From Parcubacteria group bacterium (GTDB lineage Bacteria; Patescibacteriota; Minisyncoccia; Phycocordibacterales; WO2-35-19), in the NCBI GenBank assembly GCA_012514175.1, contig JAAZAU010000008.1:977-64976 (forward strand): a DNA stretch of 64,000 nt. The letters run 5' to 3'. The position numbers and the translations under genes are program-made. Position 1 is the stretch's first letter; every line of letters starts with the position of its first letter. The notes beneath the pieces are model-generated. The model had not been told where the DNA came from. It did not search any database and saw nothing but the letters and a program-made list of their open reading frames with translations. Shown here one piece after another: positions 7,684 to 58,308 of this stretch.

Positions 7684-10600
7684 TTATGGAAGTGGTGGAA
7701 CTGGAGTGCTAGTAATCAATTCAGGGCATTTTAAGATGTTTATCCATCTCTGAGTAGTCTTGTAAACATAACCAGTTGGACCATTGGTAGGAAGTCCTGC
7801 AATTGACCAAGGAGTAAGAACTGCTGCTTCTTGGTGTGTTTGGAATTTATTAACCATATCTTGAGTTATAGGACCATAAAAGCCGGTAACTGGATTATTT
7901 ACTTCAAAGAATTGGTTAAGGAAAATCTGAAGTTTTTTAACCTCTTCAGGATCATTTTTGGCTCCAGCTTTGATGTAAGTTTTTAAGTATGGTTCACACA
8001 TTAAACTTCCATCAGTTGAAGCGCCCAAAACCTCTCCGATACTACCAGAACTATTACCCGAAACACTTCCTCCCCAAAAACTTCTTACCCCATGTCGTCT
8101 ACCACTACCCGATGACTGATTACTTGTTGGTTGGTCATTGTTGTTTGAAGAACCATTTTCTTCATTTCCGTTTCCATTTTCATTTTCATTTGAAGTATCA
8201 CCTTCTTCTTGACCGTCACCATTTGGAGGAGTTATGTCTGAAGAACCATCTCCTTCTTCTTGATCTTCTTGATCATCTCCATTTGGTGGAGTGGTTGACT
8301 CACCAGAATAGTCAGGTTTATCGCAATACTGGTTGACCACTACATTTGTATCAGCAGAACCTTCAAGATCTTTACCATTAGTTTTAGCTGTAAATGAAGC
8401 GGTGTTATCAACGCCACAAAGCGAAGGTAAGATGTTATAAGCCTCTACTGCATCTACATCATAACCGTCATCTGCTTTTCCAAAGAGATTAACGTTAGAA
8501 ATATCAGTAAGTTTTATAGCGGTGGTGTATCTGAGATTTGAACCAAAATCAATTGCGCCGTCTTTGTTCAAATCACCCAAAGACACCCATTCACCCTTGT
8601 CCGCATCCCAACCATCTACATGCACTCTTTCAATTGGATAATTAGGATTTCCAGCAAAGGTGGTCTCATAAACTTTTAAGTCGGCGCCATCACCATTAAA
8701 TATGGTGCCGTCAAAAGTCAGAACAATACTTCCACCAAATCCAAGTGAAAAGAATGTGTTGTTCAATGAATTATCCGCGTTAGAATCCCACTCTTCACCC
8801 AAAGTTTGAGCGGCTCCGAGAGCGTATTCAGGATTAGACCTGTCTACGAGAACATTCAAGCCATCTTTTCTCTTACCTTGATTGTTTTCCAAAACGTCAC
8901 TAGCCCACTTTAAGTTTGGGTTGTTGGTGAAAGCGTCAAGTGAAGCGACAAAGCTAATTGTGCCATTGCCAATACCTGTATTGCCAAGATTCCAAACAAC
9001 ACTATTCTCGTTTAAGGTTCCGCCATTATCAGCACTTACAAAGGTAAGCCCTTCCGGAATTACATCTGTTATTACAAAATCTGTTACTGGACCATCCAAC
9101 ACTTCCCAATCAATCTTGAAAGTTATTTCACCATTTTCAGTGTTATATTCACCAGATTTTTCTAAACTAACACGACCATCAACAACAGGAGGAGGCACTT
9201 CTCCGTTATCGCAAGTAACTATCCAAGAGAGATTATACAAAAGACCCCCTGGGTTTTGTTCTTGAGCAAGATTTGATCCAGCCCAATTACGAACTTCTAT
9301 CTTTAAATTATTTGAACCATCTTTAAGATAGCTAGACACATCCCAACTATCGGCAACCGAGTGATTGTCTTCTGTGCTATCTCCACCCACAAGCTCTTCA
9401 TTTACCCAAATTGTGTAAGAGTTATCGGTGGCAATTTTTAGATTCCCTGTCAAAGTGCCATTTTTAGCATCTATTTCAAAATCACGAGAAAAAGTTACCC
9501 ATTTATCTGTTTGCCAATCTGCATCATAAGGATCTTCTGACCAGACCCATTTAGCGTCAGCGTCCTCAACATCAGCATCCCAAACAGTCTCTCCTAAAGT
9601 CTGAATTTCTGAAATTTTAGTGACAAGTTTAGCGTTGAAATTACTCTCAACTGCTGGATCATCACCAACTCTTACAGAAGCAACCATTGTTTCTTCATCA
9701 CTAACAATGTTTCCAGATGAAGGGGTGCATATATTAGCAGTATCACGATTTACTACAGAGAAAGTTTCGTTTGCCTCGTCTACAACCACGCTACCCAAAC
9801 CAGACACACCTTCCCAACCGCTCTGCATTATTTCGTCAACGTTGTAAGTGCCGAGAGGAACATCTGTGAAAGTTACGCAACCACTTTCGTCTGTTAATCC
9901 CGCATATCCAGAATAAACCTCAACATTAATTGATCCAGAATTATCACCATATATGTCGTCTAAAATTCTGAATGAAAATTGACCGGCTTCGTTGGTGCTC
10001 GTTGCGTGAGCATAGACGTGTAATGGATTAAATATAGAACCCCAATCAGTATAAGATTCATTAACCTGAATACCGAGCCAACCCACACGTGATGGACTAA
10101 AATTATTTACTTTAACCCAAGGCAAAAATTGATGTTGATCACTTAGACTGCTATCAGCTTTGACAGCTAAATAAATAGGATCCGTAGGTAATCTCAAAGA
10201 ATAAGCAGCATCTGAAGTTGAAGCAGTAGGATTGTTCGGTCTATAAATATAACTACCTTTAGCTAAGAGCACATAAGGACCAACTTCTAAAGAGTTTGTA
10301 GTGCTGTAATTTTTACCATCAGGTAAAACATTTACTGTTTCAATTTTGTCTCCCAAAAGCATCATTGTCCAATTTGAGAGAGGATTTTGTTGTTCATCAG
10401 TCTTGCAAATCTTAACGGTAGCTGAATCTGGTTGAACTTCTTTTTTAACATTGAACGCCACACAATAATAATCTTTCCTTGCTTTCATATTTTCTACCCG
10501 ATCATAGTTGTCGTAATTGAAAATATCTGTATGACAATACATTTCTGCTGATTCATCTTGCCAACCATCGCTTGGATTTGTATCACCCGTAAATGGAATA

Positions 10601-11214
10601 TAATCTGGGTTTGCTTGTTCTCTCACCCAAACCTTACTGGTGCCTGTTGTCACAACTTTTGCACTTCCAGTTTTAAATGTAACCCAATTACCGCCTGCTT
10701 CAGCAATATTATCTCCAGGATTTTTTGTCCCATCTGGAGCCCATTCAAAAGTCCAAGAAGGTTCAATACGACAATTTGGATGCTTGTCTACAAAATCCTG
10801 AGCTGTGTTTTTATCAATCTTTGATTGTGAATTTCCATCACCCCAGTTTGGAAGATCGGTTTCAGATTCACAAATTATTTTTGTAGCATAGATTGTGGCA
10901 AGTTTTGAAGCATTGTTTTCACACCACCTATTACCATCTTTTGTTGGTTTGCCCTTTTTATCTAATGGTCCACTGTAAATAAAATCTCCGTGTGCTTCAT
11001 GAGCATCCCAAGCATTTTTGCTTATATTTATCGCTTCCCAAGGTTTCCTTTCGGAACCAGTAGCGTGACAAATATTTATTTTTTTATCATTATCAGGTTG
11101 AACTGCCAAAGCTACAGCTGGCACAAAAACTGCTCCCTGAAAAACGAGCATAGACAGAGACAAGAAAATAGATGTGAACTTCAAAAATCTTGTCTTGGAA
11201 GTTATGATTTTCAT
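7684..11214 (-). CDS. Large secreted multidomain surface/adhesin-like protein (DUF11-type repeat, Cna-B-like fold, jelly-roll/PA14-like region, acidic low-complexity linker, C-terminal PG_binding_1-like domain)
   Basis: Start moved to ATG 11214 (MKIITSK..., signal/TM). DUF11-like segment VITDVIPEGLTFVSADNGG...VVWNLG. Cna-B-like segment PLGTYNVDEIMQSGWE. C-terminal peptidoglycan-binding-like segment LQIFLNQ...GFYGPITQDMVNKFQ. Confidence 0.8.
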   Translation of the reverse strand: MKIITSKTRFLKFTSIFLSLSMLVFQGAVFVPAVALAVQPDNDKKINICHATGSERKPWEAINISKNAWDAHEAHGDFIYSGPLDKKGKPTKDGNRWCENNASKLATIYATKIICESETDLPNWGDGNSQSKIDKNTAQDFVDKHPNCRIEPSWTFEWAPDGTKNPGDNIAEAGGNWVTFKTGSAKVVTTGTSKVWVREQANPDYIPFTGDTNPSDGWQDESAEMYCHTDIFNYDNYDRVENMKARKDYYCVAFNVKKEVQPDSATVKICKTDEQQNPLSNWTMMLLGDKIETVNVLPDGKNYSTTNSLEVGPYVLLAKGSYIYRPNNPTASTSDAAYSLRLPTDPIYLAVKADSSLSDQHQFLPWVKVNNFSPSRVGWLGIQVNESYTDWGSIFNPLHVYAHATSTNEAGQFSFRILDDIYGDNSGSINVEVYSGYAGLTDESGCVTFTDVPLGTYNVDEIMQSGWEGVSGLGSVVVDEANETFSVVNRDTANICTPSSGNIVSDEETMVASVRVGDDPAVESNFNAKLVTKISEIQTLGETVWDADVEDADAKWVWSEDPYDADWQTDKWVTFSRDFEIDAKNGTLTGNLKIATDNSYTIWVNEELVGGDSTEDNHSVADSWDVSSYLKDGSNNLKIEVRNWAGSNLAQEQNPGGLLYNLSWIVTCDNGEVPPPVVDGRVSLEKSGEYNTENGEITFKIDWEVLDGPVTDFVITDVIPEGLTFVSADNGGTLNENSVVWNLGNTGIGNGTISFVASLDAFTNNPNLKWASDVLENNQGKRKDGLNVLVDRSNPEYALGAAQTLGEEWDSNADNSLNNTFFSLGFGGSIVLTFDGTIFNGDGADLKVYETTFAGNPNYPIERVHVDGWDADKGEWVSLGDLNKDGAIDFGSNLRYTTAIKLTDISNVNLFGKADDGYDVDAVEAYNILPSLCGVDNTASFTAKTNGKDLEGSADTNVVVNQYCDKPDYSGESTTPPNGDDQEDQEEGDGSSDITPPNGDGQEEGDTSNENENGNGNEENGSSNNNDQPTSNQSSGSGRRHGVRSFWGGSVSGNSSGSIGEVLGASTDGSLMCEPYLKTYIKAGAKNDPEEVKKLQIFLNQFFEVNNPVTGFYGPITQDMVNKFQTHQEAAVLTPWSIAGLPTNGPTGYVYKTTQRWINILKCPELITSTPVPPLP
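8150..8300 (-). repeat. Imperfect in-frame tandem repeat encoding an acidic Gly/Asn/Asp/Glu-rich linker
   Basis: Two units of roughly 60 nt (tcaccatttggaggagt... / tctccatttggtggagt...) encode PPNGD(G)QE(D)... within the adhesin gene. Confidence 0.6.
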
Positions 11215-11430
11215 ATACGATATAAGATTATTAATAAATTGATTAATAAAACTAAAAACCAAAATTATACACTAATAACTTATATTATATACTTTTTAAA
11301 ATACATTGTCAACAACACAATTTATAGACAATGACCACAAAAAACGTCCAAAAATAGACTTAAATTGGGTGTTTTCTTTCGGGGTTGCCGAGCGGAGCGA
11401 GGCGATTCATTCAGCGATTTTGGAAATAGG

Positions 11431-11503
11431 TGCGCGATAGAGGACTTGAACCTCTGACCCTCTCAACGTCAATGAGATGCTCTACCAACTGAGCTAACCG
11501 CGC
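11431..11503 (-). tRNA. tRNA-Val (anticodon GAC)
   Basis: Manual cloverleaf: acceptor GCGCGGU/AUCGCGC, D-stem GCUC/GAGC, anticodon stem UCUCA/UGAGA with loop UUGACGU, T-arm AGAGG-UUCAAGU-CCUCU. No encoded CCA. Confidence 0.8.
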
Positions 11504-11652
11504 AATTTTACTATTAAGATAACATGTTACTGAAAAAAAATCACCTTTGTGCAGATAATTTTTCAGTATTTTATAAAATAGGTTAAAAAAGAAATCAGCA
11601 AAATTAAACTAGCTTTCAGAACTAATTTAAGTTTTTAAATTTGAGTAATAAA

Positions 11653-12060
11653 TTATTCATAATTACCCTCGGCTTCAGGTTGATGTAAAATTTTCTCCAC
11701 TTTAAGTTTTTTCTTACCACCAGGAATATCAACTTCAATCAAATCACCTATTTTGTAACCCAACAAAGCGCAACCAATTGGAGAAAAGATTGATATTTTT
11801 TTCTGAGTAATATCGGCATCTTCAGGAAAAACCAACCAATATTCCAATTGGTTTCCTGATTGAGTATCGGAAAAAATGACTAATGAATTCATAGTTATAA
11901 CATCATTAGGAATTTCTTGAGACGCCACTATTGTCGCTCTACCTAATTCTGCCAACAAATTTTTGTCATGCTCATCGTAGCTTGATTTTTCGTTTATCAA
12001 ACTCATCAGTTTTTCATAATCGTTTTTTGTAATATAAATAGTATTCATAACCACAAACAA
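11653..12060 (-). CDS. GreA/GreB-family protein, short form (Rnk-like regulator of nucleoside diphosphate kinase)
   Basis: The C-terminal FKBP-like GreA domain motif SxxSPIGxALLGxxxGDxIEV..PGG is present. The 135-aa size matches Rnk rather than full GreA. Confidence 0.7.
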   Translation of the reverse strand: MFVVMNTIYITKNDYEKLMSLINEKSSYDEHDKNLLAELGRATIVASQEIPNDVITMNSLVIFSDTQSGNQLEYWLVFPEDADITQKKISIFSPIGCALLGYKIGDLIEVDIPGGKKKLKVEKILHQPEAEGNYE

Positions 12061-12149
12061 AAACCTTATACGAGCAAAAACCGCTATTTGGTTTAGCTCT
12101 AGTAATTACTATTCTAATATAAAAAAATAATAAAGCAAAAATACAAAAT

Positions 12150-12189
12150 AGCAATAAATAAAAAAGCGGCACCTCGTTTGGCACCGCTT
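12150..12189 (-). terminator. Rho-independent terminator of paralog 1
   Basis: On the minus-strand RNA: AAGCGGUGCC-AAACGA-GGUGCCGCUU (10-bp stem with two G-U pairs) followed by UUUUUUAUUUAUU. Confidence 0.6.
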
Positions 12190-12209
12190 AATGTGGCAAA
12201 AATGCACCA

Positions 12210-12674
12210 CTATTCTATTATAGGATAAGCAGAAAGAGTTTTCTGCATTTCCTCAAGAATCCTAATAACCTCAGAGGAACCGTTGGTTGCTTCTGTAGTT
12301 GCCTTCAGTTTAGCCACACTGTCCAACGTCTGTTGGTATGTATGACCAAACTTTTTGGCGTTACGCTCTTCATACTCCAAACACTTTTTCAGTTTGTCTA
12401 GAGTGGCAATGAGATTATCTGACGCACAATCAGACAACGTCAAGCCAAGACCTTCAAGTGTAGACACCATCTCCCGCACAGTTATACCGCCGGGGAAAAA
12501 TCCTTCCAAAGCTTCAATCATTGAATCTTTTGGTTTTGAGGCTTTGGAAGCTGAAAACCACTTATCCTCTATTTTTATGAGAACATTATATGCGTGAGGA
12601 TAAGAATATTCGCTTCGGCGACTCAAAAACAACTCTCCGTCACCAACAAAATGAGACGGTGGTTCTGTTTTCAT
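12210..12674 (-). CDS. Hypothetical protein, paralog 1 of a duplicated pair
   Basis: Start set at MKTEPP, preceded by SD aagggagga. Shares the core ...KWF(S/A)AS...MIEAL...GLTLSDCASD.L..TLDKLKKCLEYEERNAKK with 13255-13710. No known domain recognised. Confidence 0.6.
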   Translation of the reverse strand: MKTEPPSHFVGDGELFLSRRSEYSYPHAYNVLIKIEDKWFSASKASKPKDSMIEALEGFFPGGITVREMVSTLEGLGLTLSDCASDNLIATLDKLKKCLEYEERNAKKFGHTYQQTLDSVAKLKATTEATNGSSEVIRILEEMQKTLSAYPIIE

Positions 12675-12751
12675 AACATCCTCCCTTACCATCAGTGTGG
12701 TTATATTGCAGTTTATAAAAGAACTGACAACCTGCATTACTATACATTCAT

Positions 12752-12783
12752 TAAATTTTTTGTCGAGCATTTTTTGTGGTATT
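12752..12783 (-). promoter_or_regulatory. Conserved about-30-nt leader motif (ctcgacaaaaaatttaatgaatgtatagt) upstream of paralog 1
   Basis: Near-identical copies lie upstream of paralog 2 (13771-13798). A partial copy lies at 18734-18752 at the edge of repeat B. The motif is non-coding once SD-supported starts are used. Confidence 0.45.
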
Positions 12784-12869
12784 GCAAACATCATCTAATA
12801 AAACAAAAGAAATTAACCCGTTTGACTCGCAAGTTCAAATATGCTGTCATATTAAGCAGGAGGTGTAGG

Positions 12870-13118
12870 ATGAAATACTTGTTTTTTGGTTTGCTAATTT
12901 CCGCGGTTTTTTTGTTTTTTGGAGCGTTGGCCTTGCTGGTATTCGCTTTCAAATTGATGCAAACTATGCCACCAGAGTTGTTAATTTTGCTTGTGGCATA
13001 CATTATGATGAGAATATCAATTTTGCTCGTGTTCACTAGCATGGTTGTCGGGCTACTAATACCAATTAGGCAAGCCATCATTCAATGGGGAACCAAAAAT
13101 GCCATTGAGGAAAAATAA
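12870..13118 (+). CDS. Small two-TM membrane protein
   Basis: SD aggagg at 12858-12863, ATG 12870. 82 aa with two hydrophobic helices. Followed by a terminator. Confidence 0.5.
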   Translation: MKYLFFGLLISAVFLFFGALALLVFAFKLMQTMPPELLILLVAYIMMRISILLVFTSMVVGLLIPIRQAIIQWGTKNAIEEK

Positions 13119-13133
13119 TCCCGCTTTCTAACG

Positions 13134-13158
13134 AGACCCGTAGGAGGCGGGTCTTTTG
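13134..13158 (+). terminator. Rho-independent terminator
   Basis: agacccg-tagga-ggcgggtct followed by tttg/t-rich sequence. Confidence 0.6.
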
Positions 13159-13169
13159 TTTACATTTAC

Positions 13170-13213
13170 TAAAAACAAAAAAACAAAAAAAGCGGCACCT
13201 TGTTTGGTGCCGC
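13170..13213 (-). terminator. Rho-independent terminator of paralog 2
   Basis: Perfect 9-bp stem agcggcacc/ggtgccgct. On the minus strand it is followed by a long T-run. Confidence 0.7.
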
Positions 13214-13254
13214 TCGGTGCGACTGGTTGAAAACTTAAACTCCTTCCCCACCAT

Positions 13255-13710
13255 CTACAAATTACGAGACTTTACTGGATAAACCGAAAGAGTTTTTTGC
13301 ATCTCGTCTAGCAACTCAATGATTTCCGTAGGACCGCCTATGGCCGCTTCTTTCAATTTAACGAGATGAAACAGGATTAGTCGGTGCACATAACCGACTT
13401 TTTTAGCGTTACGTTCTTCATACTCCAGACACTTTTTTAATTTGTCCAAAGTGTCTGAAAGATCATCTGACGCGCAATCAGACAACGTTAAGCCCAGAGC
13501 GCAAAGCCCGCGTTCCAAAGAACAAATAGAACGACCGTAAGCTTCAACCAAGGCTTCAATCATTGAAACTTTTGGTTCGGAGCAATAGCTAGCCGCGAAC
13601 CACTTGTCCCCCATTTTGATAATAAAGGGAACATGAAATGAATAAAAAGGCCAAGACGTAGTCCTGCTACCTAAAAACAGTTGGCCGTCACCAGCATATC
13701 GTGTTTTCAT
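13255..13710 (-). CDS. Hypothetical protein, paralog 2 of a duplicated pair
   Basis: Start set at MKTRYAGDG, preceded by SD aaggagg. About 50% amino-acid identity to paralog 1, with a near-identical nucleotide stretch across the LTLSDCASD...EYEERNAKK core. Confidence 0.6.
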   Translation of the reverse strand: MKTRYAGDGQLFLGSRTTSWPFYSFHVPFIIKMGDKWFAASYCSEPKVSMIEALVEAYGRSICSLERGLCALGLTLSDCASDDLSDTLDKLKKCLEYEERNAKKVGYVHRLILFHLVKLKEAAIGGPTEIIELLDEMQKTLSVYPVKSRNL

Positions 13711-13779
13711 ATTGCCTCCTTGTGCCACTGGCACCGCATTGGAATTGTGTAAAAGAACTAATACCTTGCACTATACATT

Positions 13780-14020
13780 CATTAAATTTTTTGTCGAGTT
13801 TGAATATTATAAAATAAAAAGCCCCGCCTGTAATAGCGCGGGGCTTAGAGAAAGCGGAGTTAGGTTCTTATTCTCCAACTAAACCCTTCTTCCTTGAGGG
13901 TGAGTTGGAATTACCCTTTTAGGGAGCCTACTTAGGCCCCACTCTGGCTTTCTCGGACTGGCTTTACATCTCCCAACCATCGTGGTTGGGAGAGTTGGGC
14001 GAGAATATCACTTCCACCAA
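13780..14020 (-). repeat. Repeat copy A (about 241 bp; contains terminator-like hairpin, TATAAT, and three further conserved hairpins)
   Basis: About 95% identical to 18734-18970. Hairpins: gccccgcc...ggcggggc, tccaact...agttgga, ctcccaacc-atcgt-ggttgggag. Confidence 0.8.
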
Positions 14021-14331
14021 TTTACTATGAAAATTAAATTTCAGGATAAACTCAAACGATTTAACAAATTTCAGAAAACTGTACTGGGGTTGAATGAACC
14101 TAAAGTCATCCATGAAGGTACTGACCTAAAAGTCTGCGCCAAGTATATTTTGAAGGAAGGTTCGAACAAAGAAAAAAGGGAAATTATGGAGTATCTCAAG
14201 TTGAAAATAAAAATTTCCAAAGAATTTGTAAAAATTACAAACAGTTAACAATAATGAATAAATACTTATTATTGTGTCTAGACAGAGCATGCGCTCTACT
14301 GTTGTTTGAAACTCAATCAAGGAGGCCCAAA

Positions 14332-14523
14332 ATGGCTAAACCGAGAAATCCAAAAAAGGATATAACCAGCATCCGGCTCTGCGGTGTTCGAGGCTGCTGT
14401 CCTGTTGTGGAGGTCCATCACGGATACAACAAAATCGTCATTACTGATGATGACGGTGGTAAAGTTACGCTTACCAAGGAGCAGTGGCGGGAAGCGCTTA
14501 CTAAAGTCAATATTGATGACTAG
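14332..14523 (+). CDS. Small Cys-rich peptide (63 aa), candidate precursor/substrate of the adjacent radical SAM enzyme
   Basis: SD caaggagg 14318-14325, ATG 14332. Sequence MAKPRNPKKDITSIRLCGVRGCCPVVEVHHGYNK...; stop 14521-14523. Sits 80 nt upstream of the rSAM gene. Confidence 0.5.
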   Translation: MAKPRNPKKDITSIRLCGVRGCCPVVEVHHGYNKIVITDDDGGKVTLTKEQWREALTKVNIDD

Positions 14524-14603
14524 AGTCATCACAGAATCAACACTCCAACCCCTGCGCCGTAACAGACGCAGGGGTTTCCTTTCATTTGTTAAAGGAGAAA
14601 ACC

Positions 14604-16133
14604 ATGACAGATCTACATAACGCTTTGTATTGGTTCCTGTCGCGAACAAACCAGATCACTTGGAGAGCAAAACAATTTTACGCTTCTTGTTTTCTGCAAG
14701 TTTTCCGCAGAAATGGATTGGTGGCGCTTGTTCACCAACTTCACCCGGAACCAGTATATGTTTCGGAACGCACCTGGGCTGATATTCCCAAGAAAGTTAT
14801 CACGGGAACACCATCTGGAAAAATGGACGATCTTGTCCAAGAGCTTATCTCTCGCAAGGTATTCATCAGCAATCCCAACACCGATCTGCAAGAATTAAAT
14901 AATGCGCGTAAACGCACTTTGCAGATGATTAATCGTCCGACCATCCTATATCTTATGATGGCTCAAGGTTGCAACTTTGCTTGCAACTATTGTCCCATTC
15001 CAGATCTCGCCAAACAATATGGTGAGCACCTGTTATCTTTTGAAGATGCTATCGCTGGTATTAAACTCTGGCGGAAGCACATAGAAGAACAGCCACAAGA
15101 TAATAGTCCATACTTTCTAATCTTTTACGGGGGTGAGCCCTTGTTAAATCGGGAAGTGTTGGAAAAGTTACTGCCCCACATAGCCAAGGAAAAAAATGCT
15201 GGACATCTTCCTGCAAAGCTCGAACTTATGCTTTGTACCAATGGGTCTTTGGTGGACGCTGAACTTTCAAAGTTGCTAGCCCGTTACAAGGTTGTGGTAG
15301 CAATAGGTATAGATGGTCCGCAGAAACACAACGATCTCGTTCGTACAACCACCAGTGGCAGTTCTACTTTTACAAGGATCGAGCATTCGGTGAGACAACT
15401 TGTGAGCGATGGTGTTCGTGTCGTGGCCTCAGTGACTATCACTCCAGCAAATGTCAATGAAATTGATCAGTATCCACGCTTTTTGCAAAAACTAGGTTTC
15501 TCTCAATTTGGTTTTAACCTGATGAAGGGAAAAGTTTTGGTACAGCAGCTTGCCGGACAAAGCATGGAAAACTATTGTCGTGCTGCGGTTCGAGGTGTTT
15601 TGCAAGGGCTCGAAGACATTACTGCAGAGGGACAATGTTACGAGTATCAACTGGAAAAAAAATTGGTCGCTGTACGCAACGGTCTACCGTTTTCAGTTGA
15701 TTGCACTTGTTACGGTAATCAGTTGGTTATTCAAGCAGATGGACAGGTAAGCAACTGTCCATTTCTCCGATTCGACCAAGGACAAGTTAGGGAACTTCCT
15801 GATTCATTCAGGATTAGACAGACCAAAGCAGTAGAGACGTGGAGGCGCCGCCTGCCAATTCTCAATGCTTCAGTTAAAGTTGATGGCCACAAAGATATAT
15901 TCAGCGGTGGTGGATGTGCCCGAAGTTCTTTTGACCTCTATGGTGATATTGAAGCCGAAGACACCGCAAATACTATCTTCACAAAGGAGATAACACATGA
16001 ACTCATCTGGACACTCCTGCCTGGAGAACAAGCCAATGCTATTCGCCAAGAAAAAACCACTCATTGGAGTTATCGGCGGGTCAGGAATCTGTCAGTTACC
16101 GGAACTTGTGATTTCCGAAAACGTCGAAACTAA
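14604..16133 (+). CDS. Radical SAM enzyme with C-terminal SPASM/twitch auxiliary-cluster domain (peptide-modifying or anSME-like maturase)
   Basis: SD aaaggag, ATG 14604 (track start 14586 is TTG). Radical SAM motif CNFACNYCP (CxxxCxxC). C-terminal Cys pattern CTCYG...NCPF...GGGC. About 110-aa N-terminal extension before the core. Confidence 0.85.
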   Translation: MTDLHNALYWFLSRTNQITWRAKQFYASCFLQVFRRNGLVALVHQLHPEPVYVSERTWADIPKKVITGTPSGKMDDLVQELISRKVFISNPNTDLQELNNARKRTLQMINRPTILYLMMAQGCNFACNYCPIPDLAKQYGEHLLSFEDAIAGIKLWRKHIEEQPQDNSPYFLIFYGGEPLLNREVLEKLLPHIAKEKNAGHLPAKLELMLCTNGSLVDAELSKLLARYKVVVAIGIDGPQKHNDLVRTTTSGSSTFTRIEHSVRQLVSDGVRVVASVTITPANVNEIDQYPRFLQKLGFSQFGFNLMKGKVLVQQLAGQSMENYCRAAVRGVLQGLEDITAEGQCYEYQLEKKLVAVRNGLPFSVDCTCYGNQLVIQADGQVSNCPFLRFDQGQVRELPDSFRIRQTKAVETWRRRLPILNASVKVDGHKDIFSGGGCARSSFDLYGDIEAEDTANTIFTKEITHELIWTLLPGEQANAIRQEKTTHWSYRRVRNLSVTGTCDFRKRRN

Positions 16134-16875
16134 AACTCCTTACGGCAAACCATCCGGAATCATCAGAGTGGGAGAACTGTGCGGCGAAAGAGTTGCTTTC
16201 TTGCCAAGACATGGCGAGGATCATACCATTCCACCTCACAAAGTACCATACAAAGCAAACCTCTCTGCTCTGAAATCAATCGGTGTGCGACACGTAATCG
16301 CCACCTGTGTTGTCGGAAGCTTGCGGAAAGAAATTAGACCTGGTGCGTTTGTTGTCCCGGATCAGTTCATAAACTTTACGTGGGGCCGAGATGACACCTA
16401 CAGAGTTGATCGTCAACTCGTTCACTTACAGATGGCAGAATCATACTGCGAGCATGTACGAAACATTATCTCTCGCGAAATTAAAGCGATGAACGTTAAC
16501 TACCGGATCAAAGGTACAGTAGTTGTTATACAAGGTCCGAGATTTTCTACCGTCGCTGAAAGCAAGATGTTTGCACTTTGGGGAGGAGACATAGTAAATA
16601 TGACTCAATACCCAGAGTGCTTCTTCGCTCGCGAGCTCGGCATATGTTATGGGGTTGTCGCCACAGTAACCGATTACGATGTTGGTGTGCCAAGCTTGAT
16701 TTCAATGCGGACTGAATCCGTGGATGCAGTTCTGAAGGTATTCCACCGCAACACAAAGGCAACCCTATCACTGATTCAAAGGCTCGCTAGTGCCTCCAAA
16801 GAAATAACTGACTGCGTATGCGCAACCAATCGAATTGCCGAGTATTACAAATTGGCAAACATTGATAGTTCTTAA
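16036..16875 (+). CDS. mtnP: 5'-methylthioadenosine/purine nucleoside phosphorylase (MTAP/PNP family)
   Basis: Strong colinearity with MTAP: IGVIGGSG, FLPRHG..HTIPPHKV, VGSLR, VPDQFI, GPRFST.AES, GGDIVNMT.YPE. The ATG at 16036 overlaps the rSAM gene 3' end by about 98 nt. Confidence 0.85.
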   Translation: MLFAKKKPLIGVIGGSGICQLPELVISENVETKTPYGKPSGIIRVGELCGERVAFLPRHGEDHTIPPHKVPYKANLSALKSIGVRHVIATCVVGSLRKEIRPGAFVVPDQFINFTWGRDDTYRVDRQLVHLQMAESYCEHVRNIISREIKAMNVNYRIKGTVVVIQGPRFSTVAESKMFALWGGDIVNMTQYPECFFARELGICYGVVATVTDYDVGVPSLISMRTESVDAVLKVFHRNTKATLSLIQRLASASKEITDCVCATNRIAEYYKLANIDSS

Positions 16876-16912
16876 TGACCCTCGTGTTTTTGACACGAGG
16901 GTCATCTTTTTT
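16876..16912 (+). terminator. Rho-independent terminator after MTAP gene
   Basis: gaccctcgtg-tttttga-cacgagggtc followed by tcttttttc. Confidence 0.75.
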
Positions 16913-16916
16913 CAAA

Positions 16917-16945
16917 TTGACATTATATAAAAATTCTGTTAAATA
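16917..16945 (+). promoter_or_regulatory. Putative sigma70-type promoter of the ABC-F gene
   Basis: TTGACA at 16917-16922, 17-nt spacer, TAAATA at 16940-16945. A roughly 90-nt leader follows, containing a 5-codon uORF (ATG 17001-TAA 17018). Confidence 0.45.
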
Positions 16946-17036
16946 CAATAAGAGTCCTGGTGTTTCTAACATCAAGAAACGGTACTTTGACGTTTCCTGG
17001 ATGAAGAATCTAGGATAAAATAGGAGAAATATAGAT

Positions 17037-18677
17037 ATGGAGATAAAAGCGGATAAAATTCACAAAGCCTACGGCACCATTACCATACTCGATGATGTGT
17101 CCTTCTCTTTAGAGAAAGGTCAGAAAGTTGGTTTGGTGGGGTACAATGGCACTGGCAAAACTACGCTCCTTAAAATCATTGCTGGTGTTATTGAACCGGA
17201 TGGCGGAAAAATCAGTATCCGCAGAGGAGCGAAACTTGGTTACATGCCACAAGATACAAGCTTGGTCTCAGACGAGACCGTGAGCGACTATTTATGGTGC
17301 GTTTCCGGCATGAAAGAGTTGGAACAACGCATAGATGAGTCATTGGAAGCGTTGACTGATTACGAAAACAGAAACGGTTACGCATTCGATTATCGCATGG
17401 AGATGACCCTTGCAGGTTTCGGTTTGCAAAACATATCTAACAGAAATATCAATTCCCTTTCGTCTGGGCAAAAAAGCAAAGTGTTCATGGCTGGAGTCTT
17501 ACTTTCCGATCCGGATATTTTGGTGCTTGACGAGCCGACTAATAATCTCGATCTTCCAGCTCTGATCTGGCTTGAGAATTTCTTGATGCGTTGCGAGACC
17601 ACCTGTCTTATGGTTTCGCATGACCGCCTCTTCCTTGATCGGATAGTCAGAAAGATTTTTGAGATAGACTGGAACACCAGAAAACTCATAATTACGAACG
17701 GCAGATACTCAGATTATTTGGAGAGAAAGGAGAAAGAAACATCAAGACAACTCGCTGAACATAAAGCTCAGCAGGAAGAAATAAAAAGATTGACCGATCA
17801 AGCCAGGAAGAAAAAAGCTGAAGCGGTTCAAGGTTCTCGATATGTCGGCACGGACAATGACAAGTTTCTGCGCGGATTCAAACGTGACAGAGCTGCTAAG
17901 TCCGGGAAAACGGCGAAAGCAATCGAGAAACGCATTGAACAGATGGATGTGCTTGAAAAACCTGTTGAACGTGATGCTTTTCGTATCCACCTACAACCAA
18001 CCAAACCCGAAGGGTCGCGAGATATCAACTTGAAGGATGTGGTCGCCGGATATTCTGCTGATGGATTCCGTGTTGGTCCAATTTCTGCCCACATGTCATA
18101 CGGATCACGTACTCTAATTCTCGGTCTCAATGGATCGGGTAAATCCACTTTGCTTAAAACTCTAAGTGGAGAGCTTGACCTTATCAGTGGCGAAGTTACA
18201 GTTGGAAATGCCCTGGTTGTAGGAAATCTAACTCAAGAACACAACAACTTACCCCGAGAAGAAAGCATAAAAAACTTTCTAATAAGACGAGCTGGGGTTG
18301 AAGTTCAGATTGCTTACGCACTTGCTGTTAAATTTGGTTTCAAGGCCGAAGAAATAGACAAAGAAATTTCGTCTTTGTCTCCCGGTGGTAGGGCCAGACT
18401 GTTGTTTGCTTTATTTTCTGCCCTGTCGGTAAACGTCCTGTTGTTAGATGAGCCGACGAACCACCTGGATCTTGAAGCGCTCCAAGCGCTTGAAGAAGCT
18501 GTTTCGCAATACGAGGGCACTATCATTCTCGTATCGCATGATCGCCATTTCCTTGAAAAGTTCAAAGCTACCGATACCTATGTTCTTTTGGACGGAAAGC
18601 TTGAGCGTCAGCAAAGCTTCAGTCTGTACATGAAGAATGCTGAACATGAAGCAAAACGTCTAATCAGTATGTTATAG
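17037..18677 (+). CDS. ABC-F family ATPase (two tandem ABC domains, no TMD; EttA/ARE-type translation factor)
   Basis: NBD1: GYNGTGKTTLLK, LSSGQKSKV, ILVLDEPTNNLD. Charged helical linker. NBD2: GLNGSGKSTLLK, LSPGGRARL, VLLLDEPTNHLD. 546 aa. Confidence 0.9.
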   Translation: MEIKADKIHKAYGTITILDDVSFSLEKGQKVGLVGYNGTGKTTLLKIIAGVIEPDGGKISIRRGAKLGYMPQDTSLVSDETVSDYLWCVSGMKELEQRIDESLEALTDYENRNGYAFDYRMEMTLAGFGLQNISNRNINSLSSGQKSKVFMAGVLLSDPDILVLDEPTNNLDLPALIWLENFLMRCETTCLMVSHDRLFLDRIVRKIFEIDWNTRKLIITNGRYSDYLERKEKETSRQLAEHKAQQEEIKRLTDQARKKKAEAVQGSRYVGTDNDKFLRGFKRDRAAKSGKTAKAIEKRIEQMDVLEKPVERDAFRIHLQPTKPEGSRDINLKDVVAGYSADGFRVGPISAHMSYGSRTLILGLNGSGKSTLLKTLSGELDLISGEVTVGNALVVGNLTQEHNNLPREESIKNFLIRRAGVEVQIAYALAVKFGFKAEEIDKEISSLSPGGRARLLFALFSALSVNVLLLDEPTNHLDLEALQALEEAVSQYEGTIILVSHDRHFLEKFKATDTYVLLDGKLERQQSFSLYMKNAEHEAKRLISML

Positions 18678-18680
18678 CAA

Positions 18681-18716
18681 AGGAGGTTGGGTTTTCACTC
18701 GACCTCCTTTTTTTGT
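18681..18716 (+). terminator. Rho-independent terminator after ABC-F gene
   Basis: aggaggt-tgggttttcactcg-acctcct followed by ttttttt. Confidence 0.7.
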
Positions 18717-18733
18717 TTGGTTAAAGATCAAAG

Positions 18734-18970
18734 CATTAAATTTTTTGTCGAGTTTGAATATTGTAAAATAAAAAGCCCCGCCTGTAATAGCGCGGGGCTT
18801 AGAGAAAGCGGAGTTAGGTTCTTATTCTCCAACTAAACCCTTGTCTTGGGGAGTTGGAATTACCCTTTTAGGGAGCCTACTTGGGCCCCACTCTGGCTTT
18901 CTCGGTTGTCTGGCTACATCTCCCAACCACCGTGGTTGGGAGAGTTGGGCGAGAATATCACTTCCACCAA
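18734..18970 (-). repeat. Repeat copy B (about 237 bp), near-identical to copy A
   Basis: Same hairpins as copy A. Differences are confined to loops and short indels (for example atcgt to accgt in the ctcccaacc...ggttgggag hairpin loop). Confidence 0.8.
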
Positions 18971-19147
18971 TTCCCGCACCAACCCTTCTGCGAACGCCAT
19001 GGCTTCCTCGGTTGTGATGCCGAGGGCCTTGGCCCAGTTGCCGACCTGGCGCCGAAAGTCATTCGGCCTCAGTCGGACACCTTCTTCCTGAAGCTTAAGC
19101 TTCAGGAACATGAGAGCAATCTGCCCTCTCCTCTCTTCTGTCATCAT
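18914..19147 (-). CDS. Small hypothetical protein (77 aa) whose last about 19 codons are encoded by repeat B
   Basis: Strong SD (aaaggaggagga) immediately 5' of ATG 19147. Sequence MMTEERRGQIALMFLKLKLQEEGVRLRPNDFRRQVGNWAKALGITTEEAMAFAEGLVRELVEVIFSPNSPNHGGWEM. The same frame and stop are preserved in repeat A. Confidence 0.5.
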   Translation of the reverse strand: MMTEERRGQIALMFLKLKLQEEGVRLRPNDFRRQVGNWAKALGITTEEAMAFAEGLVRELVEVIFSPNSPNHGGWEM

Positions 19148-19179
19148 TCCTCCTCCTTTCTTTTTTATTTTTTTACAAC

Positions 19180-19216
19180 CTACTATATAGTAGAACAAAT
19201 ATACAGATTTAGTCAA
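19180..19216 (-). promoter_or_regulatory. Putative promoter with a 14-bp perfect palindrome overlapping the -10
   Basis: On the minus strand: TTGACT (19211-19216), 18-nt spacer, TACTAT. The palindrome CTACTATATAGTAG (19180-19193) overlaps the -10, as an operator would. Confidence 0.45.
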
Positions 19217-19387
19217 GTAAAATCTGTTTATATCTTTTTAAAATAGTTTTGCCTATTAGGTTCAAGCAAAAACCCCCGAACTCATATATTATTAACCTAT
19301 TAGTTTTATTTTTATAATATTGCTATAATTTAAATTACTTTAAGTATCCAGTTTACAAAAACAATCTGCGATTATAATTAAGATAGT

Positions 19388-20035
19388 ATGGAAAAATTAA
19401 AACCACACCAAGAAGAATTTCCCCACAAGAAACCATTGGTTGCTTCAGAGTATTCTTATCACATAAAAAATAAAGAAAAAGAGATTTTAGCAAATTTTAC
19501 ACCTGAACAACAAGCTGAAATTGAACATAAACGACAGATCCTTTCATCGTTAGCTTACTTCATTGGTAAAGATTTTCACATACCGGTTGAACTCAATAAG
19601 CCTGGAGCTGGTTGGCATTGGGATTTTGAAAAAAACGTAATCCGAATTGATCCGAAAGATCTTCTAGAAAAATCTATGGATTACTTAAGGTTTGTGATTT
19701 CTCACGAAGGAGGCCATCGCAGAATTAGCCGGGTTGACTTTGTTCCTCTTGAAGAATGGAGACAACCTGGATTTTCTTTTATGATGAATGCTATTGAAGA
19801 TCCTCGAGATAACAATTTTGTGGCAGAAGCGTATCCAACATTTCAAGAACAGATGAATCTTGCTTATAAACAAGATTTAGATTTTGAAGCAAAAACTAAA
19901 GAAAAAGCCGACCAAAAACTTGGATATCAACCACGCTTTATACAAGCGGGTTTTGAATATATAAAGCAGCGGAGGGTAAGAGATTCGAACTCTTGGTGGG
20001 TTTCCCCACACACGCTTTCCAAGCGTGCGCACTAG
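19388..20035 (+). CDS. HExxH-motif protein (putative zinc metallopeptidase-like); 3' end overlaps tRNA-Ser antisense
   Basis: Contains ISHEGGHRRI (HExxH). The last about 22 codons are antisense to tRNA-Ser, so the true C-terminus is uncertain. Confidence 0.5.
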   Translation: MEKLKPHQEEFPHKKPLVASEYSYHIKNKEKEILANFTPEQQAEIEHKRQILSSLAYFIGKDFHIPVELNKPGAGWHWDFEKNVIRIDPKDLLEKSMDYLRFVISHEGGHRRISRVDFVPLEEWRQPGFSFMMNAIEDPRDNNFVAEAYPTFQEQMNLAYKQDLDFEAKTKEKADQKLGYQPRFIQAGFEYIKQRRVRDSNSWWVSPHTLSKRAH

Positions 20036-20054
20036 ACCACTATGCGAACCCTCC
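19970..20054 (-). tRNA. tRNA-Ser (anticodon GGA)
   Basis: Acceptor GGAGGGU/ACCCUCC, anticodon stem CACGC/GCGUG with loop UUGGAAA, long variable arm UGUGGGGAAACCCAC, T-arm AAGAG-UUCGAAU-CUCUU. Confidence 0.8.
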
Positions 20055-58205: not shown

Positions 58206-58308
58206 CTCTCCCCCCCCTTGCCCATCGGGCAAAAAAGTCTACCGCACTGATCCAGCACAGTAGATAAAAGAAGTTTCTGGAGGGCCCCACAGGAGCCCCC
58301 CAGGAGAA

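What the first reader, a model, noticed from the sequence alone, without database searches (positions are those of the whole stretch)
11431..20054. GC-enriched genomic island of about 7 kb between tRNA-Val and tRNA-Ser
The segment from about 12.15 to 19.25 kb is roughly 43-52% GC in sampled 60-nt stretches. The flanking housekeeping DNA is about 30-38%. It starts about 650 bp from tRNA-Val(GAC) and ends about 800 bp before tRNA-Ser(GGA). It contains duplicated genes, repeats and the rSAM cassette. An HExxH ORF at the right edge runs antisense across the tRNA-Ser 3' end. tRNA-proximal compositional islands are the classic signature of horizontally acquired DNA. No integrase is present inside, so this may be a decayed or fixed island.
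Basis: partly seen in the sequence, partly recalled or inferred. Interest (0 to 1): 0.65.

Follow-up and report, generated by a model that had tools for sequence, protein, structure and literature searches.

The report
Mosaic acquired islet in CPR genome
The GC-rich stretch between tRNA-Val and tRNA-Ser is real and is mostly foreign DNA: a four-gene radical-SAM cassette shared among ultra-small (CPR) bacteria, inserted next to a conserved small gene and its structured RNA.

Summary
Window 12.15-19.25 kb is 41-46% GC against 35.6 +/- 2.6% background, between tRNA-Val(GAC) and tRNA-Ser(GGA), with no recombinase gene.

It is a mosaic, not one island.
1. A 4.95-kb insertion carries a small Cys protein, a radical-SAM enzyme, MTAP and an ABC-F ATPase. 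Direct repeats of about 240 nt bound it.
2. The repeat duplicates the last 58 nt of a small gene (geneX) plus a conserved, covarying structured RNA with its terminator. GeneX and the RNA are ancestral, and geneX is GC-rich in every lineage examined.
3. Two diverged copies of an orphan gene (geneA, geneA') lie to the left.
4. The HExxH ORF is the N-terminal 194 aa of a ~360-aa protein, cut at the tRNA-Ser 3' end. Full-length relatives sit beside recombinases.

The one syntenic relative keeps both tRNAs, geneX and the RNA but carries other cargo. The cassette occurs in at least seven other CPR lineages in different neighbourhoods. Its GC3 tracks the host in five and deviates about 4 SD in three, including this one. 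Only those three have flanking repeats.

Horizontal acquisition is therefore supported for the cassette. The insertion mechanism is unresolved. This is a new member of a known kind, of moderate interest.

The parts
11429..11503 (-). tRNA-Val(GAC). Left anchor of the variable interval; its 5' end faces the island.
   Evidence: ARAGORN; Rfam 67.8 bits. It is 88% identical to the L018 tRNA-Val, and the homology covers only the tRNA.
11653..12048 (-). Rnk (nucleoside diphosphate kinase regulator, GreA/GreB-like). Host-like composition, so it lies outside the island.
   Evidence: NF004396 at 125 bits against a cutoff of 109; Pfam GreA_GreB and Rnk_N; GC 0.32, GC3 0.27.
12164..12766 (-). geneA unit: promoter-like TCGACA-16-TATAGT (12739-12766), orphan gene geneA (12210-12674, 154 aa) and intrinsic terminator (12164-12189).
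   Evidence: In 5.8e9 proteins only the gene itself and its paralogue are found, and only 13 distant representatives in 1.84e9. GC3 is 0.37.
12870..13155 (+). Small hydrophobic ORF (82 aa, 12870-13118) with its own terminator (13133-13155), lying between the two geneA units.
   Evidence: Called as a gene on conspecific contig L005; ORF list; terminator; no Pfam family.
13190..13797 (-). geneA' unit: promoter (13770-13797), geneA' (13255-13710, 151 aa) and terminator (13190-13215). It is a diverged tandem paralogue of geneA, about 1040 nt away.
   Evidence: Repeat families D2, D3, D6, D7, D8 and D10. 53% aa identity. dN/dS 0.26 and dS 1.2. GC3 0.41.
13780..14022 (-). Repeat copy R1: the last 58 nt of geneX, the structured RNA, an intrinsic terminator and the -35 box of the geneA' promoter. 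It forms the left boundary of the 4.95-kb insertion.
   Evidence: Repeat families D1, D4 and D5. 94% identical to R2 including indels. Fold z = -6.1. The core motif occurs only twice in the window.
14023..14331 (+). AT-rich (32% GC) junction and leader: orphan ORF of 73 aa (14027-14248) and a promoter-like site (14245-14272) ahead of the cassette.
   Evidence: No similarity elsewhere in the window or in other loci.
14332..14523 (+). Small Cys protein (63 aa, LCGxxGCCPxV ... DDxGxxVxLTxEQ), the presumed substrate or partner of the rSAM enzyme. A hairpin with a T-run at about 14549-14589 follows it.
   Evidence: Found upstream of the rSAM gene in all 8 other loci. 36-73% identity, with Cys17, Cys22 and Cys23 invariant. 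AF2 pLDDT 78, four strands and a helix. The hairpin is read from the sequence.
14604..16133 (+). Radical-SAM enzyme (509 aa) with CX3CX2C and four conserved C-terminal Cys, i.e. SPASM/twitch-like. It belongs to a CPR-wide family.
   Evidence: Pfam Radical_SAM and Fer4_12. NCBIfam best hits are peptide maturases, all far below their cutoffs. PDB best hit is anSME at 2.7e-13. 416 homologues, and the named ones are almost all CPR. Invariant Cys.
16036..16905 (+). MTAP-type phosphorylase (S-methyl-5'-thioadenosine phosphorylase family) with a strong terminator at 16875-16905.
   Evidence: TIGR01694 at 275.3 bits against a cutoff of 274.85; Pfam PNP_UDP_1 at 1.4e-39; terminator. The GGSG motif lies upstream of the start that gene callers chose (16108), so the start is placed at 16036 by inspection of the ORF.
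17037..18710 (+). ABC-F ATPase (546 aa) with its own promoter-like site and a terminator (18679-18710).
   Evidence: NF000355 'ribosomal protection-like ABC-F' at 401.5 bits against a cutoff of 380; Pfam ABC_tran x2 and ABC_tran_Xtn.
18734..18972 (-). Repeat copy R2: the same structured RNA and terminator, here attached to the intact geneX. It forms the right boundary of the insertion.
   Evidence: 86% nt identity to L018 14752-14882. Covariation in the 8-sequence alignment: 8 of 39 pairs show double compensatory changes.
18914..19216 (-). geneX (77 aa, 18914-19147) with a promoter-like site at 19187-19216. This is an ancestral small gene that always precedes the RNA.
   Evidence: Homologues (44-60% aa) lie directly upstream of the RNA in L018 and L100-L105. 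GC 0.57 and GC3 0.71 here, but geneX is GC-richer than its host in all lineages.
19388..19969 (+). Truncated HExxH gene: the N-terminal 194 aa of a family of about 355-367 aa. The ORF runs on to 20035 only by reading tRNA-Ser antisense.
   Evidence: Homology to the full-length proteins P0133 and P0125 ends at residue 194, which is nt 19969. Full-length genes sit in HExxH-VWA-AAA_5 operons near an rve integrase, a serine recombinase, FtsK and HTH_17. GC3 is 0.28.
19969..20054 (-). tRNA-Ser(GGA). Its 3' end is the exact right-hand breakpoint of synteny with L018 and the truncation point of the HExxH gene.
   Evidence: 93.5% identical to the L018 tRNA-Ser, and the homology stops at the 3' end.

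Best explanation
The interval between tRNA-Ser(GGA) and tRNA-Val(GAC) in this CPR/Patescibacteria genome is a variable hotspot. The genome comes from an anaerobic-digester population. Three layers of accessory DNA sit around one ancestral module.

The ancestral module is geneX, a 77-aa protein, followed by a structured RNA of about 110 nt and a terminator.

The main GC-rich block is a 4.7-kb cassette with two transcription units. The first encodes a 63-aa Cys protein, a radical-SAM enzyme and MTAP. The second encodes an ABC-F ATPase. The cassette was acquired horizontally from another CPR lineage of roughly 43-47% GC. It now lies between two ~240-nt copies of [geneX 3' end + RNA + terminator + -35 of the geneA' promoter].

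The most economical route is recombination within that sequence. One version is a single crossover of a circular DNA carrying one copy. The equivalent version is insertion of a geneX-RNA-cassette block into the resident geneX, 58 nt before its stop. This step is inferred, not shown.

To the left are two old tandem paralogues of an orphan gene (geneA and geneA'), moderately GC-enriched and under purifying selection.

To the right is the stump of an HExxH-VWA-AAA_5 mobile-element module, deleted up to the tRNA-Ser 3' end. That marks the tRNA as a past recombination junction.

Inferred cargo function: the rSAM enzyme modifies the conserved small Cys protein, and MTAP removes the inhibitory 5'-deoxyadenosine or MTA by-product. 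The ABC-F acts on the ribosome, either as a housekeeping factor or as protection.
For: Composition. GC is 44.3% against 35.6%. GC3 is 0.41-0.46 against 0.275 +/- 0.04, z = +4.0.

The bias is not intrinsic to the cassette. In L112 the same cassette has GC3 0.25 in a host at 0.205. In L093, L095, L097 and L099 it lies within 1 SD of the host. In L098 it is 3.8 SD below the host.

Boundary repeats coincide with compositional outliers.
- Window: direct repeat of about 240 nt.
- L098: 37-nt repeat of the tRNA-Gln 3' end. GC drops from 57-62% to 44-50% between the two copies.
- L091 and L111: 48-nt perfect direct repeat plus 177-nt perfect inverted repeats beside tRNA-Ser(gct), with 56-57% GC against 41-43%.

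Synteny. L018 (DnaB 86%, RmuC 81%, HtpX 73%) keeps RecR-DnaB-HtpX-tRNA-Ser ... geneX-RNA ... tRNA-Val. It lacks the cassette, geneA and the HExxH gene. Instead it has a PRTase, a GrpB protein, an HTH protein and a 381-aa protein with a weak EVE-domain hit.

The cassette sits in a different neighbourhood in each lineage.

The arrangement is reproduced at 99.9-100% identity in at least 5 independent assemblies.

The HExxH truncation at nt 19969, and the mobile-element context of full-length homologues, are shown.

The RNA is real: fold z = -6.1, 8 covarying pairs, and 86% nt identity where geneX is only 47% identical at the aa level.
Against: Only one syntenic relative was available, and it is fairly distant (housekeeping proteins 46-86% identical). 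No island-free strain of the same species was found, so no empty site has been seen.

Both repeat copies include the -35 box of the geneA' promoter. The duplicated segment therefore derives from this lineage's own geneX-RNA-geneA' arrangement. A foreign circle carrying it needs an earlier step in a sister strain. An in-situ duplication is equally possible.

In L112 the cassette lies 0.6 kb from L21-RecR-DnaB. The same block lies 3 kb from the cassette here. This hints at an old linkage and possibly vertical descent with loss in L018.

The cassette is widespread in CPR and GC-richer than the host in most loci. No donor has been identified. No recombinase is present to explain site-specific insertion.

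No phylogenetic incongruence test could be run.
Confidence: 0.62

Rival explanations
1. The whole block is native and vertically inherited. Its GC-richness reflects gene-intrinsic constraints such as RNA structure, conserved protein sequence or expression level. The relative L018 simply lost the cassette.
For: geneX is 5-14 points GC-richer than its host in all seven lineages, and the RNA is GC-rich by structure. The cassette is a widespread CPR operon and is richer than its host in 7 of 8 host lineages. In L112 it lies beside L21-RecR-DnaB, as it does here. All conspecific assemblies carry it.
Against: Synonymous-site GC of the cassette follows the host when resident (0.25 in L112, 0.39 in L099) and is lower than the host in L098. 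There is therefore no set-point that would explain 0.43 in a 0.275 host. The cassette is bracketed by a duplicated segment that truncates a copy of geneX. It sits in a different neighbourhood in nearly every lineage.
Confidence: 0.17
2. This is one classical tRNA-Ser-integrated island. An integrase-bearing element covering about 12.15-19.97 kb entered at the tRNA-Ser 3' end as a unit. It later lost its integrase and far attachment site by deletion.
For: Synteny with L018 breaks at the tRNA-Ser 3' end. The HExxH gene is cut at the same point. HExxH homologues travel with recombinases and an excisionase-like HTH_17 protein. The same cassette is a textbook tRNA-Gln island in L098.
Against: Composition is heterogeneous. 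GC3 is 0.28 for the HExxH fragment (host-like), 0.41-0.46 for the cassette and 0.37-0.41 for geneA and geneA'. geneX and the RNA in the middle are ancestral to the interval. No copy of the tRNA-Ser or tRNA-Val 3' end is present anywhere else in the window, allowing up to 3 mismatches. The repeats that do exist bound only the cassette.
Confidence: 0.15
3. It is a metagenome assembly chimera. A 4.7-kb piece from a different, GC-richer organism was spliced in at a shared 240-nt repeat.
For: The source is a metagenome assembly. The insert is bounded by a repeat longer than typical k-mers. Short Logan contigs break inside the repeats.
Against: The same arrangement is recovered at 99.9-100% identity by at least 5 independent assemblies from different samples and assemblers (contigs of 241, 64, 23, 12.8 and 9 kb), all spanning both junctions. 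The two repeat copies differ by SNPs and two indels spaced closer than k = 127-141, so they can be threaded unambiguously. L006 joins R1 to the cassette directly.
Confidence: 0.03

Closest known systems
tRNA-associated genomic islands or islets (pathogenicity-island type)
   Same: Deviant GC and codon usage. Location beside tRNA genes. Flanking direct repeats. Absence from a related genome. A synteny break at a tRNA 3' end.
   Different: It is only about 7 kb, so an islet. It has no integrase. The direct repeats derive from the 3' end of a protein gene plus its structured RNA, not from a tRNA. It is a mosaic of at least three layers rather than one element.
CIMEs (cis-mobilizable elements): elements that have lost their integration and transfer genes but keep attL and attR (definition in PMC6323972)
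   Same: A cargo-only segment bounded by direct repeats, with no recombinase or transfer genes. The L098 copy has a tRNA-Gln 3'-end repeat at both ends and no integrase.
   Different: No cognate ICE or integrase is known. The 240-nt repeats here are much longer than typical att cores and may simply be substrates for homologous recombination. Mobilisation was not demonstrated.
Radical-SAM/SPASM peptide-maturase gene pairs: RiPP clusters such as the FibroRumin system and PapB ranthipeptides, and QhpD, which matures the small subunit of quinohemoprotein amine dehydrogenase
   Same: A small Cys-containing ORF lies immediately upstream of an rSAM enzyme with an N-terminal extension and C-terminal auxiliary-cluster cysteines. 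A hairpin separates the small gene from the enzyme gene. The best NCBIfam hits are these maturases.
   Different: All scores are far below the family cutoffs (113 against 400; 103 against 453). Only four conserved C-terminal Cys are present, and Pfam detects no SPASM domain. The small protein is conserved over its whole length in the closer cassettes (67-73% identity, falling to 36% in the most distant) and is predicted to fold, unlike a leader-plus-variable-core precursor. There is no protease or exporter.
ARE-type ABC-F ribosomal-protection genes in antibiotic producer clusters (TlrC/CarA/OleB/SrmB class)
   Same: An ABC-F that passes the NCBIfam 'ribosomal protection-like ABC-F' cutoff lies next to a putative peptide-modification unit.
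   Different: It fails every specific resistance-family cutoff (for example ABCF_producer, 308 against 800). It is separately transcribed and is missing from the Giovannonibacteria version of the cassette (L095). It may be an ordinary translation factor.

Membership tests
tRNA-associated genomic island | Base composition or codon usage deviating from the host genome | tested here: met
   GC 41-46% against 35.6 +/- 2.6%. Cassette GC3 z = +4.0. Raised tetranucleotide distance. The geneX and RNA parts are GC-rich intrinsically.
tRNA-associated genomic island | Insertion at or next to a tRNA gene | tested here: met
   The interval is bounded by tRNA-Ser and tRNA-Val. Synteny with L018 and the HExxH gene both break at the tRNA-Ser 3' end. 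The GC-rich core itself begins about 720 nt from tRNA-Ser.
tRNA-associated genomic island | Flanking direct repeats derived from the tRNA 3' end (attL/attR) | tested here: not met
   No second copy of either tRNA 3' end in the window, allowing up to 3 mismatches. The repeats present (13780-14022 and 18734-18972) derive from geneX and its RNA.
tRNA-associated genomic island | Mobility genes (integrase, transposase) inside | tested here: not met
   Pfam, NCBIfam and PHROGs on the main ORFs, plus tBLASTn with an rve integrase and a serine recombinase, found none.
tRNA-associated genomic island | Absent from the same site in related genomes | tested here: met
   L018, the only syntenic relative found, lacks the cassette, geneA and the HExxH gene between the same tRNAs and holds different cargo. 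This rests on a single relative. No conspecific empty site was found.
CIME (cis-mobilizable element) | Intact attL and attR recognised by an integrase supplied in trans, with no integration or transfer genes of its own | not testable with these tools
   Direct repeats are present and mobility genes are absent. Whether the repeats are functional att sites needs an excision assay. Definition from PMC6323972.
rSAM/SPASM RiPP maturase system | Radical-SAM CX3CX2C core | tested here: met
   C123, C127 and C130 are invariant in 8 homologues. Pfam Radical_SAM at 6.5e-14.
rSAM/SPASM RiPP maturase system | Full SPASM domain (seven-Cys motif) or membership of a curated maturase family | tested here: not met
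   No Pfam SPASM hit. Only four conserved C-terminal Cys. Every NCBIfam maturase model scores far below its cutoff.
rSAM/SPASM RiPP maturase system | Adjacent small precursor gene with a variable core peptide | tested here: inconclusive
   A 58-64-aa ORF always lies directly upstream. However, it is conserved over its whole length and predicted to fold. This fits a modified small protein (as QhpD matures the amine dehydrogenase small subunit) better than a RiPP precursor.
S-methyl-5'-thioadenosine phosphorylase (MTAP) | Score at or above the TIGR01694 equivalog cutoff | tested here: met
   275.3 bits against a cutoff of 274.85, which is marginal.
Ribosomal-protection-like ABC-F | Score at or above the NF000355 cutoff; two ABC domains plus linker | tested here: met
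   401.5 bits against 380. ABC_tran x2 plus ABC_tran_Xtn. All specific resistance subfamilies (Msr, Vga, Lsa, Sal, OptrA, producer type) are far below their cutoffs.

The most novel reading that the evidence does not exclude
CPR bacteria exchange a self-contained, integrase-less cassette of four genes: a small Cys protein, an rSAM enzyme, MTAP and an ABC-F. The cassette lands by recombination at conserved structured-RNA loci. In one lineage the site is the tRNA-Gln 3' end; here it is a previously undescribed RNA in the geneX 3' UTR. On this reading the cassette makes an rSAM-modified small protein that acts on translation. It carries its own by-product salvage (MTAP) and its own ribosome-protecting ABC-F.
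Probability: 0.18. Interest if true: 0.68.

Novelty: new member of a known kind. Interest (0 to 1): 0.4.

Why it matters
Gene flow in CPR/Patescibacteria is poorly documented, because their genomes are small, uncultured and usually fragmented. This locus gives a clean, reproducible example of a compositionally foreign cassette. It sits in a tRNA-bounded hotspot, has no recombinase and is bounded by a duplicated RNA-bearing segment.

The comparison across nine loci from eight other lineages shows the same operon both as an ameliorated resident and as a recent arrival with three kinds of boundary. That makes the cassette a usable marker for studying horizontal transfer within CPR.

The work also flags two uncharacterised but conserved items. 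One is the pairing of a small Cys protein with an rSAM enzyme. The other is the geneX gene with its 3' structured RNA.

None of this overturns current ideas. It is an ordinary kind of feature in an unusual group of organisms.

Tried and rejected
- Repeats of the tRNA 3' ends inside the window: none, allowing up to 3 mismatches.
- Circular element hypothesis for the 4.8-5.0-kb Logan contigs seen in 17 samples: rejected. They start and end inside R1 and R2 with no terminal overlap, so they are assembly breaks.
- Rfam for the repeat RNA: no hit at gathering threshold, and nothing credible at E <= 10 on the window or E <= 1 on L018.
- PHROGs and PADLOC on the unknown ORFs: nothing significant. The rSAM and ABC-F hits are generic superfamily matches.
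- Similarity of the insertion to phage or plasmid records: none beyond short ABC-F motifs. The RNA motif is absent from viral contigs.
- Search for an island-free conspecific strain, using exact rSAM and geneX proteins: all contigs carry the island.
- Intrinsic 'GC set-point' of the cassette: considered, then rejected after L112 (GC3 0.25) and L098 (below its host).
- Association of the RNA motif with other cassettes: none.
- geneA homologues next to other cassettes: none.
- Structure. The geneA model has low confidence (pLDDT 62) and was not used. The 63-aa protein model (pLDDT 78) has no significant PDB fold match, best E = 0.3.
- Literature on CPR rSAM/MTAP cassettes or CPR genomic islands: nothing relevant found.

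Full report
**OBSERVATION**

The compositional anomaly is real.
- One-kb windows from 13001 to 19000 are 40.7-45.8% GC. The 99 background windows average 35.6% (sd 2.6, maximum 41.1).
- Tetranucleotide distance to the rest of the window is about twice the background.
- tRNA-Val(gac) at 11429-11503(-) and tRNA-Ser(gga) at 19969-20054(-) are confirmed by ARAGORN and Rfam.
- A second, stronger GC-rich block lies at 56.5-60.6 kb (50% GC) and is not rRNA.

**ORGANISM AND REPRODUCIBILITY**

The exact rSAM protein is found on more than 20 contigs from anaerobic-digester metagenomes. Five long contigs (241, 64, 23, 12.8 and 9 kb) come from different samples and assemblers. All reproduce the whole region at 99.9-100% identity.

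Relatives of the flanking HtpX gene are Patescibacteria/CPR MAGs, labelled Parcubacteria, Paceibacterota or Minisyncoccia. The short 4.8-5.0-kb Logan contigs are assembly breaks inside the repeats, not circles.

**ANATOMY**

Reading the minus strand from tRNA-Ser to tRNA-Val, the order is as follows.

1. tRNA-Ser.

2. A truncated HExxH ORF, antisense to the tRNA.

3. geneX (77 aa, 18914-19147).

4. Repeat copy R2 (18734-18972).

5. The cassette, on the opposite strand:
   - ABC-F at 17037-18677.
   - MTAP at about 16036-16875.
   - The rSAM enzyme at 14604-16133.
   - The 63-aa Cys protein at 14332-14523.
   - An AT-rich leader with an orphan 73-aa ORF.

6. Repeat copy R1 (13780-14022).

7. 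geneA' (13255-13710).

8. A small hydrophobic ORF on the plus strand.

9. geneA (12210-12674).

10. Rnk.

11. tRNA-Val.

R1 and R2 are 94% identical, with differences concentrated in loop regions. They lie about 4950 nt apart. Each contains four elements:
- the last 58 nt of geneX;
- a strongly structured segment (fold z = -6.1);
- an intrinsic terminator;
- the -35 box of the promoter-like element TCGACA-16-TATAGT, which also precedes geneA.

geneA and geneA' are 53% identical, with dN/dS 0.26 and dS 1.2. They are therefore real genes and an old duplication. They are close to orphans in 5.8e9 and 1.84e9 protein collections.

**THE REPEAT IS AN ANCESTRAL GENE-RNA MODULE**

The only syntenic relative is L018 (DnaB 86%, RmuC 81%, HtpX 73%). 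It contains geneX at 47% aa identity. Directly after the geneX stop codon it has the same RNA at 83-86% nt identity.

A metagenome scan with the RNA core found six more loci, and every one has geneX directly upstream. RNAalifold on eight sequences gives 39 pairs, of which 8 show double compensatory changes. The outer stem pairs the geneX stop-codon region.

The RNA has no Rfam match. geneX is 5-14 GC points richer than its host in all seven lineages. That part of the island's GC signal is therefore intrinsic and not evidence of transfer.

**SYNTENY TEST**

In L018 the same two tRNAs bracket about 4 kb holding a PRTase, a GrpB protein, an HTH protein and a 381-aa protein with a weak EVE-domain hit, then geneX and the RNA. 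There is no cassette, no geneA and no HExxH gene.

Nucleotide homology between the two genomes stops at the tRNA-Ser 3' end and covers only the tRNA at tRNA-Val. The interval is a variable hotspot. The tRNAs are not adjacent in the relative.

**THE CASSETTE ELSEWHERE**

The rSAM family has 416 detectable relatives. The named ones are almost all CPR.

In nine other loci from eight lineages the order is conserved: small Cys protein, rSAM enzyme, MTAP-like PNP and usually ABC-F. The neighbourhoods differ. They include IF2/RbfA, Ddl/PheS/GyrB, DnaK/DnaJ, DnaG/sigma-70, DNA polymerase III tau/tRNA-Gln, NDK/Suf, a restriction-modification system, and L21-RecR-DnaB.

**COMPOSITION ACROSS HOSTS**

Cassette GC3 compared with host ORFs:

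| Locus | Cassette GC3 | Host GC3 | z |
|---|---|---|---|
| Window | 0.43 | 0.275 | +4.0 |
| L091 | 0.68 | 0.39 | +4.4 |
| L111 | about 0.68 | 0.42 | +6.2 |
| L098 | 0.44 | 0.61 | -3.8 |
| L093, L095, L097, L099 | – | – | within 1 SD |
| L112 | 0.25 | 0.205 | +2.1 |

L091 and L111 belong to the same lineage (87% nt identity over 5.8 kb).

The cassette can be AT-rich, and it can be poorer in GC than its host. No intrinsic set-point therefore explains the window's value.

The three strongly discordant lineages are the only ones with boundary repeats.
- Window: the ~240-nt repeat.
- L098: a 37-nt repeat of the tRNA-Gln 3' end, with the GC step located between the copies.
- L091 and L111: a 48-nt perfect direct repeat plus perfect inverted repeats of 177 nt (L091) or 77 nt (L111), beside tRNA-Ser(gct).

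This is the main evidence that the cassette moves horizontally among CPR bacteria and arrived recently here.

**THE tRNA-Ser EDGE**

The HExxH ORF matches full-length proteins of 355-367 aa only through residue 194, which corresponds to nt 19969. The remaining 21 codons read tRNA-Ser antisense.

Full-length genes head HExxH-VWA/CobT_C-AAA_5 operons. These lie beside an rve integrase, a serine recombinase, FtsK, an HTH_17 protein or a retroelement.

The fragment has host-like GC3 (0.28). It is a separate, older remnant of a mobile element, deleted up to the tRNA 3' end.

**MECHANISM**

Shown:
- A duplication of about 240 nt flanks the cassette.
- One copy carries only the 3' stump of geneX.
- No recombinase gene is present.

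Inferred: recombination occurred within this segment. Three routes cannot be separated without an empty site.
- A single crossover of a circular DNA carrying one copy.
- Insertion of a foreign geneX-RNA-cassette block into the resident geneX.
- Insertion into a pre-existing tandem duplication.

Both copies include the geneA' promoter -35 box. The duplicated segment therefore originated in this lineage or in a very close one.

**CARGO**

The rSAM enzyme has the CX3CX2C motif and four invariant C-terminal Cys. It resembles the FibroRumin, QhpD and PapB maturases but falls far below their cutoffs. Its best solved relative is anSME.

The 63-aa protein is conserved throughout, with three invariant Cys, and is predicted to fold. 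No fold match was found.

MTAP just passes TIGR01694 and the ABC-F passes NF000355. A terminator after MTAP and a promoter-like site before the ABC-F indicate two transcription units.

The functional model is an inference from established knowledge that 5'-deoxyadenosine inhibits radical-SAM enzymes and is cleared by MTA-type nucleosidases or phosphorylases. In the model:
- the rSAM enzyme modifies the small protein;
- MTAP clears the 5'-deoxyadenosine or MTA by-product;
- the ABC-F acts on the ribosome.

**CAVEATS**

- Only one syntenic relative was found, and no empty site.
- No phylogenetic test could be run.
- In L112 the cassette lies next to L21-RecR-DnaB, as it does here, which hints at an old linkage.

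**VERDICT**

This is a mosaic acquired islet in a tRNA-bounded hotspot, a new member of a known kind. It has two uncharacterised conserved components worth a separate look.

Noticed in passing
window 18734-19147 (-) and 13780-14022 (-); L018 14514-14882; L100-L105: A conserved CPR module: a 77-aa gene (geneX) is always followed, starting at its stop codon, by a structured RNA of about 110 nt plus a terminator. The RNA has invariant CCUAAAAGGGUAAUUCCAACUC and GGAGNAUAAGAACCU, and 8 of 39 pairs covary. It has no Rfam family. A further hairpin lies inside the last ~25 nt of the coding sequence.
   Followed up: partly
window 56500-60600: A second, stronger GC-rich block (47-54% GC, the largest tetranucleotide deviation in the window). 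It holds four minus-strand genes, two with OmpA-like domains and two without a family, and ends about 1 kb from tRNA-Asn(gtt) at 61574-61646. It is not rRNA and may be another acquired block.
   Followed up: partly
L098 9224-14999: A textbook integrase-less tRNA island in another CPR genome. tRNA-Gln(ctg) and a 37-nt repeat of its 3' end bracket the same cassette plus a PRK/uridine-kinase-like gene. GC drops from 57-62% to 44-50% between the two copies.
   Followed up: yes
L091 6737-6943 / 12278-12453 and L111 1-77 / 5411-5487: Perfect inverted repeats (177 nt in L091, 77 nt in L111) bracket [2OG-Fe(II) oxygenase + cassette]. The unit is 56-57% GC in a host of 41-43%, and L091 adds a 48-nt perfect direct repeat. 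It may be an invertible or transposon-like unit. Two related genomes share it at 87% nt identity with different right flanks.
   Followed up: partly
window 31167-31943 (-), next to tRNA-Ala 31995-32068: A 259-aa nucleotidyltransferase-like protein is 69% identical to the gene that directly follows the MTAP gene in the Giovannonibacteria version of the cassette (L095 12303-13082). In this genome it sits 13 kb away.
   Followed up: no
L112 9723-17093: In a distant relative (DnaB 52% identical) the cassette lies 0.6 kb from L21-RecR-DnaB. The same housekeeping block lies 3 kb from the cassette in the window, though inverted. This may be an old linkage or a favoured landing region.
   Followed up: partly
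window 14549-14589: A hairpin (CCCCTGCG...CGCAGGGG) followed by a T-rich run lies between the 63-aa gene and the rSAM gene. It looks like a partial terminator, which would raise the ratio of small-protein to enzyme transcript.
   Followed up: no
table (contig lengths of rSAM homologues): The longest contigs carrying rSAM homologues are spread evenly from 2 to 6 kb and then drop sharply above 6 kb (about 17, 14, 16, 17, 4 and 4 per kb bin). Assemblies may often break at the cassette borders in other genomes too.
   Followed up: no
window 8000-10500: The 1192-aa surface-protein gene (7684-11262, minus strand) reaches 40-41% GC, the top of the background range. It has strongly negative GC skew and a low-complexity Asn/Gly/Ser/Glu-rich C-terminal region.
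   Followed up: no
L099 15394-18405: SufB in this CPR contig carries an intein with a LAGLIDADG endonuclease domain (Pfam hits precomputed).
   Followed up: no
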